NCBI GenBank assembly: GCA_964106915.2
Contig: OZ066929.1
Source of the DNA: Podarcis gaigeae
Taxonomy: Eukaryota
Direction: 5' to 3' (one strand)
Length of the DNA: 64,000 bases
This document shows, one piece after another, positions 55,903-60,800 of this stretch. The stretch's first letter is position 1. Each line of letters begins with the position of its first letter. The position numbers were made by a program.

Positions 55903-57754
55903 TTAAGCACAGCTGCCCAGCTAAACTGCTTCCAGTGTCCTCCCCTAATATTTCCTTTGGTGCCCACAGGCTGCTGTGGAAGAACTGCAACTGTTTTTGA
56001 GAGAAAGAGAGACACGGAGAGGGGGCTTTTCTCAGGGGCCCAACATAGGCCTGCTTAAAAGCCAAAGCAACCTGAACGGGTGGTAGTGGAAACAACTTTC
56101 AGATGCAGACTAAGAAATAGCACAATATCACGGAAGGTGCTGGAGGGTGAGGGGCGGCTCCTAGTTGCTGTAGCAAAGCTGATTTTTCCAACCAGCTCCA
56201 TCTCCCAACAGAGCTACCCCATAATGTATGACATTGGGGGGGGGGGGCAGGATTGGAATGATGTGCTACACGCAGGGCTGGGCATCATCTGAGATTTCCT
56301 GGAGGCGCAGAAAAGCTGCAGGGCACAGAAATCCAATTCGGCTCCTGTTGCTTTAGAAAAGCAGCTCCCTAGCCCTTCAAGACTGTAGGCATTTTGTGAG
56401 AGAGCATCTGGTTGCTGAAACCTCAGAAGCTGAATGAGATTGCCCGGGGGGGGTGTGTGTGTGCAGAATCAAGCACATTCACAGATCAACGTCCTCCTTC
56501 CTGCAAAAAAACCACATTCCACTTTTTGTTGCTGCTTTTCAAAATGCTCTGACGTTTCCCTGTGAGTTTGACCGGTCTGCATCAATGCTAACAGGCAGCG
56601 AGAGCATGCGTCAGTCCAATTGGTGGATGGGGACCACCCCTGGGGGTTCCCCCACACCAATGGGAGAAGCTGCCTCAGCAGAAGGAAAAAAGATACCTTT
56701 CAGCAGGTGACTTCACGACATACCTTCGGCTGTCTGGTTGTACCCAAACCCTGAGGTTTCATTCCCTGGCATGGTGGGGGTGGGAAAGTCCTCTGGAGAG
56801 CAGCGTATGGGGAAGGGAGGAAGTGTTAATGTCCAGCGCAAAGGATTGTGGGACTCCTGTCATTTGCCGGATCATGTTGGGCTTCTCACCCGCAGGACAA
56901 TTTATTGTCCTACCCCCTACGGCAGGCTTGAAAGAGTCTATAGGCAATAGCACACAAACGTTCCTAGCCAAGGCTCTGCTTTTAGTATGAACCTCTCGCA
57001 GGATGTTGGAATGGAGGGTTAATAAACCCAAGAGGCTGGTGGCAGCATCTCAATTACGCCAGCGACGTTTTACCAATACAGCAATTAAATGCCATTCTAA
57101 TTGAAAAACAATTCCTCAGCTCAGTTGAAAAATCAATTAAATAGCACCAAAGTTAATGAAGCTTTCAGTCTAGGAATTGTGGGTTTTTAGCAAACCAGCA
57201 ATTCATAAGCGCTAGAGCCAAATACTAAAGGCCAAAAATGCATTTAAACTGTTATGAAGTACGGTAGTCGGACAGACATAAACGACAACAGTTTTGCTGG
57301 TAATGCCAAACATACCTCATCTATGGCAATCCATTCCCAGAGTGGTAAGCCAGACACAACAGCCACACACCTTGCTTCCTGCTTTTAAATGAAATGTGTG
57401 GAGCGCATGGGAACTGGCTGGGCTCTCCAAGCCCCAAGGACAAAAACAGCAAGCAGAATGCATATGTACATACACCGCCCCCCAGTCTCAATATATAGTC
57501 ACCTTTCTCATATCCAGAAAATGGCTCTCAATATTTTCCTGGCTTCCTCCCAAAGCTTAGCTTTACCCGGGGCTGAGCCCTGCAGGTTGAAATAAAGATA
57601 GGCCTCTGAGCGTGGGCAGAGCATCATGAATTGCCACACAGGCCTTAATTCTGGCATTTTGTAAAGAAAATTACCCTGCCATCATTGCATTGCTGCCTGT
57701 TTCTGCTTGCCCACAGAGACCAATTCAGAAGAAGAACTGCTGCTGCCTTTGGGA

Positions 57755-57809
<55 letters not shown>

Positions 57810-60800
57810 CCTTTCTAAACAGGACTAGCAAGGACCTTCTCAAAGGGAACCCAAGCAGCAAGAGCTTTCAGGGGCATCAGGGAAACAGTGCAGTATCAGA
57901 GAAGATGCTGGAGAGAGGATGGGGAGAGGCTCCTGCACTTTGTCAAAACGTGTTCTCTCTCTCCCTGGCCTACAGAAAGGCTACCCCACAAAACAATTCA
58001 CTGGATATGCTATCAGGATGAGGTGTTGCCTTCAATATCCTAGAAGCACAGAAAAGCAACAGAACATGGAAATCCAATCCAGCTCCTGTTTCTACTGAAA
58101 AGCAGGTTCTTAGCCCTCAAGACTGTGGGCATTCTGTTTCAGCAACTGACCAAGGCCTGCTGGAACCTCAGGAGCTGAATGGGATGGCCAGGAATGCAGC
58201 CTCAAAAGGAATTATCATGCACATTCACAGGGCATTTTCTTCTCCCTGCAAAAAAACCAAATCCCACTTTTTGTTGCTCACATTTCAAAGAGCTCACATA
58301 GCTCTGACCTTTGCTTTTGGGTTTGGCCAGTCTGCATCAATGCTAACAGGCAGCAAGAGCATGCGTCTGTCCAATTGGTGGATGGGGACCGCCCCTGGGG
58401 GTTCCCCCACACCAATGGGAGAAGCTGCTTCAGCAGCAGAAGGAAAAAAGATACCTTTCAGCAGGTGACTTCCCGACATACCTTCGGCTGTCTGGTTGTA
58501 CCCAAACCCTGAGGTTTCATTCCCTGGCATGGTGGGGGTGAGAAAGTCCTCTGGAGAGCAGCGTAAGGGGAAGGGAGGAAGTGTTAATGTCCAGCACAAA
58601 GGATTGTGGGACTCCTGTCACTTGGCGATCACTGATGGGCTTCTCACCAGGAGGATAATGGATTGCCTGCCTGCTATGGCAGGCATGAAAAAGTCTATGT
58701 GCAGAGGTATATAAATCTTCCTAGCCAAGGCTCTGCTTTCGGTATGAACCTAAACACAGGCATTGGAATGGAAGGTTAATAAACCCAAGAGGCTGGTGGC
58801 AGCATCTCAATTAAGATGTTTTAATATGGCAATTAAAAGCCATTCCTCAGCATATTTGGAAAAATCAATTAAACAGCACCGAAACTTGGTTAATGAAGTT
58901 TTCAGTCTAGGAATTGTGAGATTTTAGCAGATGAACAACTCGTAAGCACTTGAGACCAACACTTAAGGCTAAAATGCATTTAAAATGATACAAAATACAG
59001 GAATCCAACAGACAAGAACAGCAAGTCTTTCAGGGCCATGCCAAACATACCTCATCTACTGCAGTGGTAAGCCAGATACAACAGCCACACACCTTGCCTC
59101 CTGCTTTTAAACAAAAGAGCAGGCTGGGCTCTCCAAGTCTGAAGACGAGAACAGCAAACAGGACACACACAAACACCCACACCCACCCCTCCCACTTGCA
59201 ATATATAATAGCCTTTCTTGTATCCAGAAAACAGCTCTCAATATTTCCCAGGCTTCCTCCCAAAGCTTGAACCAGGGCTCAGCCCTGCAGGCTCAAATAA
59301 AGACGGGCCTCTGAGCATGGGCAGAGCGCCATGAAGGCAATTTCCACACAGGCCTTAATTCTGGTATGTTTGAGGTGTGTGTTTTGTAAAGAAAATTACG
59401 CCACCATGACAGAATTGCTGACCGGTTTCTGCTTGCCCACAGAGACCACTTCAGAAGAACTGCTGGGAGGAAGACAGAGAAAGAGAAGGCCTTTCTGAAC
59501 AGGACTAGCAAGGACCACCTCAAAGCGAAAAGGCACCCAAGCAGCTGCTGGAGGGATTGGGTAGCAAGAGCTTTCAGAGACATCGCAGAAAAGGTGTCAT
59601 AGAAGATGCTGGAGGGAGGATGGGGAGAGGCTCCCGGACTATGTCACAAAGTGCTCTCTCCCTCCCTGCCTTCAGAAATAGTTAACCCCCCAAAAAAATT
59701 CACTGGATATGGGGGGCACTAAACATGCTGCTATCAGGACTAAGTGTCACCTGCTATTTCCTGGAAGCACAGAAAAGCCAGAGAACATGGAATTCAAATT
59801 CAAGTCCTGTTTCCTCTCCTCTCCTTTTGTTTTTTTTAAAGCAGGTGCCTAGGCCTGTTGCCCGTGATGCAAGAGAATGTGTGGCAAACACCTACTGAAA
59901 TTTCAGGAAATGAATCAGATTGCCAGAGGGGCAGGGGAGGGAGGTAGAACTATGCACATTTCTAGCTTTTCTTTATCCTGGCACAAAATGGTGCTTGCTT
60001 TTTAAAGCACATACCTGTGCATGATCTGAACTCAGAAGACCAGCCTAACAGGCAACAGCATGCATTGATCCGATTGGTTGGAGAGGATTCTCAGAGTGCC
60101 ACTCTGCAACCAATGGGAGAGGCTGCCCTAGCTGAATTATAAACAGATACCTTTTTGTGTGTCATTCCCTTGCTGCATTGCTGCAGGAGTTTGGGGAGTG
60201 GGTGTCGGGTTGTACCCAAACTCTGAAGTTTCATTTTCTGGCAAGGTGGGGGTAGAAAAACCATCTGGAGAGCAGCAGGCAGAGAATGTAGGTAATGTTA
60301 ACAATTTAGCACAAAGGGATTGTCAGAAGCTCTTGGCTTCCAAAGGAGACAATGGCTTAAATGACCCATTGGAGGCTCACTCATTAAATTAGGTCTGCAG
60401 AATTTCGACGATTCATCAATTTAGAATAAATTTCGCGTAACTAAAAAGGTGCCGCCCTCAATAACGCAGTCAGAAGCTTCCCCCAGTTAATCTTATTGAT
60501 TGAAACTGTGCATGAAGAAGTTCTGGATTTTAAAAGGGGGGGGAATGGAAACTATATATATAAATTAGGCATATTTTCTTGCTCTTCAACTATAGACAAC
60601 GACGGTATGTACTAAAATGACAAAAAGTAAGTTATAGTACCTGTTTACATGGTGGTTCTATTTAATAAAAAGACAAACATTCACAATCTACAGCATCCCT
60701 TTCCCAAAGTGGTTAACCAGATTCACCTCCCGCTGCCACACACCTCTCAAAGCCCCAAGAAACAGAACGGCAGGCAGGAAGACCAAACCCCCTCCCCAAA

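What the first reader, a model, noticed from the sequence alone, without database searches (positions are those of the whole stretch)
56697..58550. Dual 5' splice sites in stalk copies 2 and 3; the distal donor of copy 2 reads into a TGA (soluble or NMD switch)
Seen: copies 2 and 3 have a strong internal donor (AAG|GTATGT, 69-nt exon) and keep the ancestral-position donor 27 nt downstream (AAG|GTATCT, 96-nt exon, same length as copy 1). In copy 3 the extension is open (GMSGSHLLK). In copy 2 a single GGA>TGA change (56713-56715) stops translation before the TM exon. Inference: donor choice could yield a secreted MCAM ectodomain or an NMD-targeted transcript; a soluble splice form is reported for chicken HEMCAM (recalled). 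Alternatively the extension is simply decaying after the new donor took over.
Basis: partly seen in the sequence, partly recalled or inferred. Interest (0 to 1): 0.68.

Follow-up and report, generated by a model that had tools for sequence, protein, structure and literature searches.

The report
Twin splice donors in lizard MCAM
Two recently duplicated small optional exons of a lizard MCAM (CD146) gene each carry a newer, better splice donor 27 bases ahead of the old weak one, and the stop codon in one of the 27-base stretches is most likely a harmless change in what is now intron.

Summary
The sequence observation is correct. The gene is MCAM/MUC18 on the minus strand of a lacertid lizard window. 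Between a short stalk exon (62370-62402) and the transmembrane exon (53579-53723) lie four, not three, tandem units of about 1.7-1.9 kb.

U56 and U58 have AAG|GTATGT, giving a 69-nt exon, and AAG|GTATCT 27 nt further on, at the column of the U54 and U60 donors. The 27 nt are open in U58. In U56 they hold a TGA (56713-56715) that differs by one base.

The functional reading has no support. The only two lacertid MUC18 cluster representatives found (634 aa) skip all four cassettes, and no database protein contains the U58 or U60 peptide. The 27 nt differ at 1 of 27 positions between the paralogues, like the surrounding core (8 of about 277), so neither coding use nor decay can be read from them.

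Most likely the upstream donor is used whenever the cassette is included, and the TGA is a recent neutral change. An NMD or soluble-form switch is possible in silico, because the stop lies at least 276 nt before the last exon junction. It cannot be tested without RNA data. Interest is low.

The parts
63611..63752 (-). MCAM exon for the second half of Ig domain 5 (VFTSVMQ...HHFMLAQ); donor AGA|GTAAGT
   Evidence: 47 of 47 residues identical to Podarcis muralis MUC18 P0005; donor. The exact 5' end of the exon was not checked.
62370..62402 (-). Constitutive short stalk exon (RQEGGTPNAKT), phase 1-1; donor CTG|GTAAGC
   Evidence: Matches residues 527-537 of P0004 and P0005. Splice sites.
60151..60264 (-). 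Stalk cassette U60, the fourth copy, not named in the finding; 114 nt, phase 1-1; single donor AAG|GTATCT
   Evidence: The peptide is similar to stalk repeats of the Lerista (P0071) and Gekko kuhli (P0060) MCAM models: 0 of 300 shuffles reach the score.
58482..58550 (-).
58455..58481 (-). U58 27-nt extension between the internal donor and the ancestral-position donor AAG|GTATCT; open frame (G)MSGSHLLK
56724..56792 (-).
56697..56723 (-). U56 27-nt extension up to the ancestral-position donor AAG|GTATCT; contains the in-frame stop
56713..56715 (-). In-frame TGA; U58 has GGA at the matching place. The variable base is 56715.
   Evidence: U60 also has G in the aligned column, but the alignment is weak there.
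54792..54887 (-).
58243..58614 (-). Low-divergence core of U58, from about 64 nt before the exon to about 212 nt after its start. The matching U56 tract is about 56580-56856. It holds the branch-point motif, the exon, both donors, the ATTGG/CCAAT pair and GCATG. The U58 coordinates are shifted by eye from the U56 coordinates.
   Evidence: 8 mismatches in about 277 aligned nt, against 134 of 656 upstream and 219 of 611 downstream. Motifs.
53579..53723 (-). Transmembrane exon, with a tandem (NAGNAG) acceptor at 53723/53720; donor GAT|GTAAGC
   Evidence: 46 of 46 residues identical to Zootoca MUC18 P0004..
52500..52617 (-). Cytoplasmic exon (I)TKPEAH...SAGDQ; donor CAG|GTAGGC
   Evidence: 39 of 39 residues identical to P0005..
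51557..51586 (-). Start of the last exon with the end of the coding sequence (GEKYIDLRN, then stop)
   Evidence: Matches the C-termini of P0004 and P0005.

Best explanation
The window holds the 3' part of MCAM (MUC18/CD146) of a lacertid lizard, on the minus strand. The intron before the transmembrane exon contains four tandem units. Each unit carries an optional, frame-neutral (phase 1-1) cassette coding for a Pro/Thr-rich, N-glycosylated piece of the juxtamembrane stalk.

The ancestral donor of these cassettes is weak (GTATCT or GTATCC, with no G at +5). This fits exons that are usually skipped. In the common ancestor of U56 and U58 the 3' half of the exon was remodelled: 18 nt coding the conserved QTP motif were lost and the tail was heavily substituted. 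Substitutions also created a better donor (GTATGT, with G at +5) 27 nt upstream.

Inferred: when U56 or U58 is spliced in, the upstream donor is the one mostly used, and the 27 nt are now intron. The old GT survives because it sits in a conserved or homogenised 280-nt core, not because it is used. The TGA in U56 is then a single recent neutral substitution. Any residual use of the distal donor of U56 would be splicing noise removed by NMD.

Shown: the anatomy, the homology of the donors, the relative donor quality, the absence of the cassettes from the lacertid reference proteins, and their presence in skink and gecko MCAM models. Inferred: which donor is used, and that the cassettes are used at all.
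For: - Gene identity: the TM exon is 100% identical to Zootoca MUC18, and the Ig5 and cytoplasmic exons are 100% identical to Podarcis muralis MUC18.
- There are four units with start-to-start spacings of about 1.7-1.9 kb (1905, 1755, 1698 in family D7). All four have the TTAAC motif, an AG-free tract, an acceptor, an open phase-1 frame and a donor.
- Donor quality: internal 8/9 and -6.8 kcal/mol; distal 7/9 and -5.7; U60 7/9 and -5.8; U54 6/9 and -5.7. Three of the four neighbouring MCAM donors have G at +5 (GTAAGT, GTAAGC twice, GTAGGC).
- The internal donor is expected only 0.035 times per 96 nt by chance.
- The cassette is a real MCAM element. U54, U60 and U58 peptides align to stalk repeats of the Lerista edwardsae model P0071 with 0 of 300 shuffles reaching the score. 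U54 and U60 align to Gekko kuhli P0060 with 1 and 0 of 300.
- In the first 20 codons pN is below pS in the five older pairs: pN 0.107-0.152 against pS 0.225-0.366.
- The U56/U58 tail is the least conserved part of the unit and lacks the QTP segment that U54 and U60 share (17 of 22 nt identical).
- The extension peptide (GMSGSHLLK) has no sequon and is unlike the other tails.
Against: - No transcript evidence of any kind was available.
- By U1 pairing alone the two donors differ little (1.1 kcal/mol, one consensus position), so mixed use is quite possible.
- The U58 extension is open, and both donors keep the frame, as expected for a true alternative pair. Both would also happen by chance (about 65% and 1 in 3, my arithmetic).
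- The extension is as well conserved between U56 and U58 (1 of 27) as the exon body (1 of 69), so it is not visibly decaying.
- The lacertid reference proteins skip the cassettes altogether, so the premise that U56 and U58 are ever included is itself unproven.
- The pN/pS counts rest on 60 nt and are not significant.
- P0071 and P0060 are genome-project gene models ('hypothetical protein'). The support behind them is unknown to me.
Confidence: 0.5

Rival explanations
1. Silent pseudo-exons. In lacertids U56 and U58, and perhaps all four cassettes, are no longer spliced into MCAM mRNA at any useful level. Both donors are then irrelevant, and the TGA is one early sign of neutral evolution.
For: - Both lacertid MUC18 cluster representatives found (P0004 with 3 members and P0005 with 19 members, both 634 aa) join the RQEG..AKT exon directly to the TM exon.
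- No protein in the clustered collection shares the U58 or U60 peptide, and none does in the 50% representatives.
- The ancestral donors are weak.
- U56 and U58 have lost the QTP segment that is conserved in U54, U60, Lerista and Gekko.
Against: - All four copies keep the branch-point motif, AG-free tract, acceptor, open frame and donor.
- A core from about -100 to +125 around the exon is far better conserved than the rest of the unit, even between the old copies. For U54 against U60, the last three 60-column windows, which cover about 100 nt before the acceptor and most of the exon, give 46/58, 45/58 and 51/60, where most windows further upstream run near or below 50%.
- pN is below pS in the older pairs.
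The database negatives are therefore weak.
Confidence: 0.27
2. True alternative 5' splice sites. Both donors are used. U58 then gives two in-frame isoforms that differ by 9 residues. Distal-donor use in U56 gives a transcript with a premature stop, either as unregulated by-product or as a regulated NMD or soluble-ectodomain switch.
For: - The two donors are similar in U1 pairing and 27 nt apart in the same phase.
- The stop lies at least 276 nt upstream of the last exon junction.
- Splice forms of MCAM without a TM region are reported in chicken (PMC2133972, abstract only) and in human (intron-retaining I10- and I5-13-sCD146; passages of the review PMC13429764).
- GCATG lies 88-91 nt after the ancestral-position donor in U60, U58 and U56. 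This motif is known as an Rbfox site (recalled) and could regulate the exons.
Against: - There is no expression evidence.
- The stop is present in only one of two near-identical paralogues. By the aligned U58 and U60 bases it is derived, which is not the pattern of a conserved poison element.
- A transcript that is an NMD target is a poor source of secreted protein.
- The known human soluble forms arise by intron retention, a different route.
- GCATG is expected 0.14 times per 125 nt by chance and is shared here by descent.
Confidence: 0.15
3. The TGA is not a fixed feature. It is an assembly or base-calling error in a near-identical tandem repeat, or a private or polymorphic variant of the sequenced animal.
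For: The U56 and U58 cores differ at only 8 of about 277 positions. This is the kind of repeat in which reads can be misplaced, and the stop rests on one base (56715).
Against: - The window has no N and no sign of collapse.
- The two units are clearly distinct outside the core: about 20% mismatches upstream (134 of 656) and about 36% downstream (219 of 611).
- Nothing in the sequence points to an error.
Confidence: 0.06

Closest known systems
Alternative 5' splice sites coupled to nonsense-mediated decay (unproductive splicing, 'poison' exon extensions)
   Same: There are two competing GT donors in one exon. The longer form carries an in-frame stop far upstream of the last exon junction (at least 276 nt).
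   Different: Use of the distal donor is not shown. The stop is in one young paralogue only and appears derived. Conservation of the stop across species, which I recall as typical of regulated cases, could not be examined.
Soluble MCAM/CD146 splice forms: the chicken HEMCAM third variant and human I10-sCD146 and I5-13-sCD146
   Same: The predicted product would be an MCAM ectodomain without the transmembrane and cytoplasmic parts.
   Different: The human forms retain introns (review PMC13429764, passages). How the chicken form arises is not stated in the abstract, which is all that is held. Here the route would be a donor shift in a lineage-specific duplicated cassette, and the transcript would be an NMD target.
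Tandemly repeated stalk cassettes in other squamate MCAM gene models: Lerista edwardsae P0071 (2 units) and Gekko kuhli P0060 (about 8 units by eye)
   Same: The peptide core is homologous (GNETSxFxxNQT...QTP), with 0-1 of 300 shuffles reaching the score for U54 and U60. The position is the same, between Ig5 and the TM exon.
   Different: Copy number differs. U56 and U58 are truncated and lack the QTP part. In the lacertid reference proteins the cassettes are absent. Homology to the single extra stalk pieces of Anolis carolinensis X2 (P0053) and Varanus (P0031) could not be shown: 20 to 131 of 300 shuffles reach the score.
Relic (cryptic) donor left in the intron after a splice-site shift
   Same: A newer, better donor lies upstream. 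The old donor is intact at the ancestral column. There is a stop in the intervening stretch of one copy.
   Different: The stretch is not visibly decaying (1 of 27 differences). It lies in a conserved or gene-converted core, so the age of the shift and the disuse of the old donor cannot be read from the sequence.

Membership tests
MCAM / MUC18 / CD146 gene | Exons coding the Ig5 C-terminal half, the short stalk, the transmembrane segment with the KKGKL motif, and the cytoplasmic tail ending in KYIDLRN, colinear with known MUC18 proteins | tested here: met
   71 hits. Nearly all carry a MUC18 or melanoma-cell-adhesion-molecule name; the rest are 'hypothetical protein', 'Ig-like domain-containing protein' or unnamed. 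The best is Zootoca MUC18 at 100%; the Ig5 exon is 47 of 47 and the cytoplasmic exon 39 of 39 identical to Podarcis muralis MUC18; the GEKYIDLRN-stop exon.
Tandemly duplicated cassette exons | Head-to-tail genomic units, each with a homologous exon, intact splice signals and a symmetric phase | tested here: met
   four units; TTAAC at -37 or -38; AG-free tract; CAG acceptor; GT donor; phase 1-1; lengths 114, 96 (69), 96 (69) and 96 nt.
Tandemly duplicated cassette exons | Inclusion of the cassettes in mature mRNA | not testable with these tools
   No lizard transcript or read data were accessible. The lacertid reference proteins lack the cassettes. Skink and gecko gene models contain homologous units.
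Alternative 5' splice site exon | Two donor sites in one exon, each with a GT and a plausible U1 match | tested here: met
   AAG|GTATGT scores 8/9 and -6.8 kcal/mol; AAG|GTATCT scores 7/9 and -5.7 kcal/mol. This holds in both U56 and U58.
Alternative 5' splice site exon | Both donors used in transcripts | not testable with these tools
   No RNA data. Protein searches with the extension-bearing peptide found nothing relevant.
AS-NMD switch (poison extension) | A premature stop more than 50-55 nt upstream of the last exon-exon junction in the alternative form | tested here: met
   16 nt to the end of the exon, then 142 or 145 nt (TM exon) and 118 nt (cytoplasmic exon), so 276 nt or more.
AS-NMD switch (poison extension) | Conservation of the stop-bearing element among related copies or species | tested here: not met
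   The sister paralogue U58 has GGA at that codon, and the aligned base in U60 is also G. Orthologues in other lacertids could not be examined.
Soluble MCAM splice isoform | An mRNA and a protein lacking the TM and cytoplasmic regions, detected experimentally | not testable with these tools
   The only basis is the in-silico stop before the TM exon. Literature precedent: PMC2133972 (abstract) and PMC13429764 (passages).

The most novel reading that the evidence does not exclude
The distal donor of U56 is a lineage-specific 'poison' 5' splice site. By choosing between two donors 27 nt apart in a duplicated stalk cassette, lacertid cells would either add a glycosylated stalk module to membrane MCAM, or send the transcript to NMD or produce a TM-less secreted ectodomain. 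This would be a route to soluble or down-regulated MCAM distinct from metalloprotease shedding and from the intron-retention forms described in humans. It could be steered by the conserved intronic block with (U)GCAUG after the donors.
Probability: 0.05. Interest if true: 0.45.

Novelty: new member of a known kind. Interest (0 to 1): 0.2.

Why it matters
The finding matters little as it stands. A better donor arising inside a weakly defined, recently duplicated cassette exon, with the old donor left behind, is ordinary exon evolution. One stop codon in 27 nt of probable intron needs no special explanation.

If the distal donor were shown to be used, the locus would be a small natural example of how exon duplication followed by a donor shift creates a new NMD-coupled or secreted isoform of an adhesion receptor whose soluble form is biologically active in mammals.

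The context is of somewhat wider interest. Squamate MCAM genes carry a variable number of homologous, frame-neutral, glycosylated stalk cassettes: four here, two in a skink model and about eight in a gecko model. Their flanking intron is conserved. This suggests regulated variation of stalk length next to the membrane, where mammalian CD146 is shed.

Tried and rejected
- **Protein searches, exon by exon.** The U58 exon with 9 flanking codons found 1 candidate and none at E<=10. The U60 exon with 3 flanking codons found 5 candidates and none at E<=10. Both negatives are weak, because only representatives of 90% clusters are searched and isoforms that differ by one small exon would be hidden.
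- **All-representatives search.** The 31-residue U58 long form gave 2 hits at E<=0.001. Both are unrelated repetitive proteins (P0075, P0076) and I rejected them.
- **Anolis and Varanus.** Homology of the cassettes to the extra stalk piece of Anolis carolinensis X2, Anolis sagrei or Varanus could not be shown: 20 to 168 of 300 shuffles reach the score.
- **RNA folding around the donors.** z-scores are -1.75 (U58), -1.50 (U56), -2.18 (U54) and +0.26 (U60), and 7, 15, 6 and 114 of 200 shuffles fold as well. In the U58 and U56 folds both AGGU cores pair with upstream ACCU. This gives no convincing evidence that structure decides donor choice.
- **Other scans.** ARAGORN found 0 genes. Rfam at gathering scores found 0 matches in the window. 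Pfam on 10 translated stretches gave one sub-threshold match (Insulin_TMD, 18.2 bits against a cut-off of 33.4) on the TM exon and nothing else.
- **Literature.** 'MCAM' with 'exon duplication' returned 0 papers. 'CD146' with 'lizard' returned 20 papers; 8 were listed, and none is on this topic by title or start of abstract.
- **Splice-site scoring.** MaxEntScan and SpliceAI are not installed, so no such scores were computed. I used consensus matches and U1 duplex energy instead.
- **Collections.** No orthologous lizard locus, population data or reads could be consulted. Supplementary files of papers were not opened.
- **Human sequence.** The window is lizard. No contig or hit that I took for human was met.

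
Full report
**What the window is.** The region lies in the 3' part of MCAM (MUC18/CD146) on the minus strand. The transmembrane exon, searched on its own, found 71 proteins, nearly all named MUC18 or melanoma cell adhesion molecule. The best are Zootoca vivipara (P0004, 100%) and Podarcis muralis isoform X1 (P0005, 98%). By tblastn the Ig5 exon (47 of 47) and the cytoplasmic exon (39 of 39) are identical to P0005. 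The animal is therefore a lacertid lizard, not human. No contig or hit that I took for human was met.

**Anatomy.** In gene order, with + strand coordinates:
- Ig5 exon, about 63611-63752
- a short stalk exon, 62370-62402 (RQEGGTPNAKT)
- four tandem units
- the TM exon, 53579-53723
- a cytoplasmic exon, 52500-52617
- the last exon, from 51586

The repeat finder and two alignments show four homologous units, not three. Their start-to-start spacings are about 1.7-1.9 kb (1905, 1755 and 1698 in family D7).

|---|---|---|---|
| U60 | not mentioned | 60151-60264 | 114 nt |
| U58 | copy 3 | 58455-58550 | 96 nt (69 nt short form) |
| U56 | copy 2 | 56697-56792 | 96 nt (69 nt short form) |
| U54 | copy 1 | 54792-54887 | 96 nt |

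Each unit has a TTAAC branch-point-like motif 37-38 nt before the acceptor, with no AG in between. Each also has a CAG acceptor, an open frame in phase 1-1 and a GT donor. The peptides carry two or three N-x-S/T sequons each and are rich in Pro and Thr.

**The observation.** It is confirmed in every detail.
- U56 and U58 have AAG|GTATGT ending a 69-nt exon, and AAG|GTATCT 27 nt further on.
- The second donor is in the same alignment column as the only donors of U54 (GTATCC) and U60 (GTATCT).
- The extension reads (G)MSGSHLLK in U58 and (G)MS-stop in U56. The TGA at 56713-56715 is the only difference between the two extensions.
- The aligned base in U60 is G, so the T is probably derived. The alignment there is poor: U58 against the U60 tail is 16 of 34 identical.

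**Donor quality and chance.** The internal donor matches the consensus at 8 of 9 positions, with a U1 duplex of -6.8 kcal/mol. The distal donor scores 7 of 9 and -5.7. The gain is essentially the G at +5. Sites of 8/9 or better occur 47 times in 127,982 positions, so 0.035 are expected per 96 nt.

**Is the cassette a real MCAM element?** Yes, at least in squamates generally.
- U54, U60 and U58 align to the stalk repeats of the Lerista edwardsae MCAM model P0071, with 0 of 300 shuffles reaching the score.
- U54 and U60 align to the Gekko kuhli model P0060, with 1 and 0 of 300.
- These models contain two units and about eight units (counted by eye), in the same place between Ig5 and the TM segment.
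- They are genome-project 'hypothetical proteins'. I do not know what transcript support they have.
- In the first 20 codons the five older paralogue pairs have pN 0.107-0.152 against pS 0.225-0.366. This is suggestive, but it rests on 60 nt.
- A core from roughly 100 nt before the acceptor to about 125 nt after the ancestral donor is much better conserved than the rest of the unit in all pairs. As I recall, this is typical of regulated alternative exons.

**Is it used in lacertids?** I found no sign of it.
- Both lacertid MUC18 cluster representatives (634 aa) pass from the RQEGxxPxAKT exon directly to the TM exon, leaving no residues for any cassette.
- The U58 and U60 peptides found no protein in the clustered collection.
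- The U58 long form found only two unrelated repetitive proteins among 1.84 billion representatives.
- These negatives are weak.

**What the paralogue comparison says about the 27 nt.** Between U56 and U58 there are 8 mismatches in about 277 aligned nt, from 64 nt before the exon to 212 nt after its start. The flanks show 134 of 656 upstream and 219 of 611 downstream.

Within the core the counts are:
- exon body: 1 of 69
- extension: 1 of 27
- next 130 nt of intron: 6 of 130

Either the core was recently homogenised by gene conversion, or it is under strong constraint. In both cases the extension behaves like its surroundings. The data show neither coding constraint on it nor decay.

In deeper comparison, the tail after the shared ..GACA is the least conserved part of the exon. 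U56 and U58 have lost the QTP-coding stretch that U54 and U60 share (17 of 22 nt). Their remaining tail matches U54 at 7 of 34 and U60 at 16 of 34. The equal length of 96 nt in copies 1, 2 and 3 is therefore a coincidence of different indels.

**Consequences in silico.** Both donors keep phase 1. With the distal donor of U56 the stop lies 16 nt before the end of the exon. It is at least 276 nt (16+142+118) upstream of the last exon junction, or 96 nt more if U54 is included. The transcript would therefore be an NMD target by the 50-55-nt rule (established knowledge). Any protein made would lack the TM exon.

The recalled precedent is real as far as I could see. [quoted passage not shown] A 2026 review describes human I10- and I5-13-sCD146 as intron-retaining splice forms, beside shedding by ADAM10/TACE (PMC13429764, passages). 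A 2025 review gives the long and short isoforms as products of exon 15 splicing (PMC12701039, passages). None of these uses a donor shift in a stalk cassette.

**Verdict.**
- Most likely (0.5): the internal donor took over in the ancestor of U56 and U58, the 27 nt are intron whenever the cassette is used, and the TGA is a recent neutral change.
- Next (0.27): these cassettes are not used at all in lacertids.
- True dual-donor use, as noise or as a switch: 0.15, of which I give a regulated NMD or soluble switch about 0.05.
- An error or a private variant at 56715: 0.06.

All four can be separated by junction reads, which I could not obtain.

**Not done.** MaxEntScan and SpliceAI scores, orthologous lizard loci, population data and reads were out of reach. 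The closed collections and paper supplements were not consulted. Folding around the donors gave no significant structure. ARAGORN, Rfam and Pfam added nothing. Literature searches for MCAM exon duplication (0 papers) and CD146 in lizards (20 papers, 8 listed, none relevant by title or start of abstract) found no prior description.

Noticed in passing
window 60151-60264 (-): A fourth stalk cassette (U60, 114 nt, GFSTPTLPENETSEFGYNPTPTPQTPAAMQQGNDTQK). It is the longest and the most like the skink and gecko units. The finding speaks of three copies only.
   Followed up: yes
window 54861, 56766, 58524 (-): exon offset 27 in U54, U56 and U58: An acceptor-like CAG|G preceded by a C/T-rich stretch lies 27 nt inside the exon, in frame (U60 has CAG|A). 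The Lerista model units begin at the matching GNETS, so the cassettes may also have two possible 3' splice sites. The conserved TTAAC and the AG-free tract favour the upstream acceptor.
   Followed up: partly
window 53720-53725 (-): The acceptor of the transmembrane exon is a tandem NAGNAG (..GAG|CAG|AG..). The two lacertid reference proteins differ by exactly the residue this would add or remove (AEQT in P0005, EQT in P0004).
   Followed up: partly
window about 56580-56696, 58340-58454, 60040-60150, 54678-54791 (-): About 115-125 nt of intron after the ancestral-position donor is conserved in all four units. It contains an ATTGG ... CCAAT pair, and GCATG at +88 to +91 in U60, U58 and U56 but not U54. 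GCATG is known as an Rbfox site (recalled). It is expected 0.14 times per 125 nt by chance.
   Followed up: partly
window about 56580-56856 against about 58243-58614: There is a sharply bounded tract of about 277 nt with 8 mismatches between U56 and U58, inside units that otherwise differ at about 20% of positions or more. This points to gene conversion or strong constraint. A second 40-nt block without mismatches lies about 225-264 nt upstream of the exon.
   Followed up: partly
window 55842-55899 and 57758-57806: (GA)n microsatellites of 29 and 24.5 repeats lie at corresponding places in two adjacent units. A decayed purine-rich stretch sits at the matching place near 59467-59490.
   Followed up: no
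window about 52850-53180 and about 62560-62800: These are SINE-like insertions in MCAM introns. The first has a tRNA-like head. The second carries a 16-nt tandem repeat at 62745-62786. They resemble squamate SINEs as I recall them. ARAGORN and Rfam report nothing there.
   Followed up: no
window 53575-53580 (-): Reading through the donor of the TM exon gives ..GKQEM followed at once by a stop. The short-tail isoform X2 of Rhineura floridana (P0006) ends GKQEMERNTSI. Intron retention here would give a very short cytoplasmic tail.
   Followed up: no
window 38245-38823 (+): This is a proline-rich open frame of 193 codons (..[32 protein letters not shown]..). It looks like the proline-rich region of c-CBL as I recall it. 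That would fit the tail-to-tail CBL-MCAM arrangement I recall from human 11q23. Pfam finds nothing, and the resemblance was not tested.
   Followed up: no
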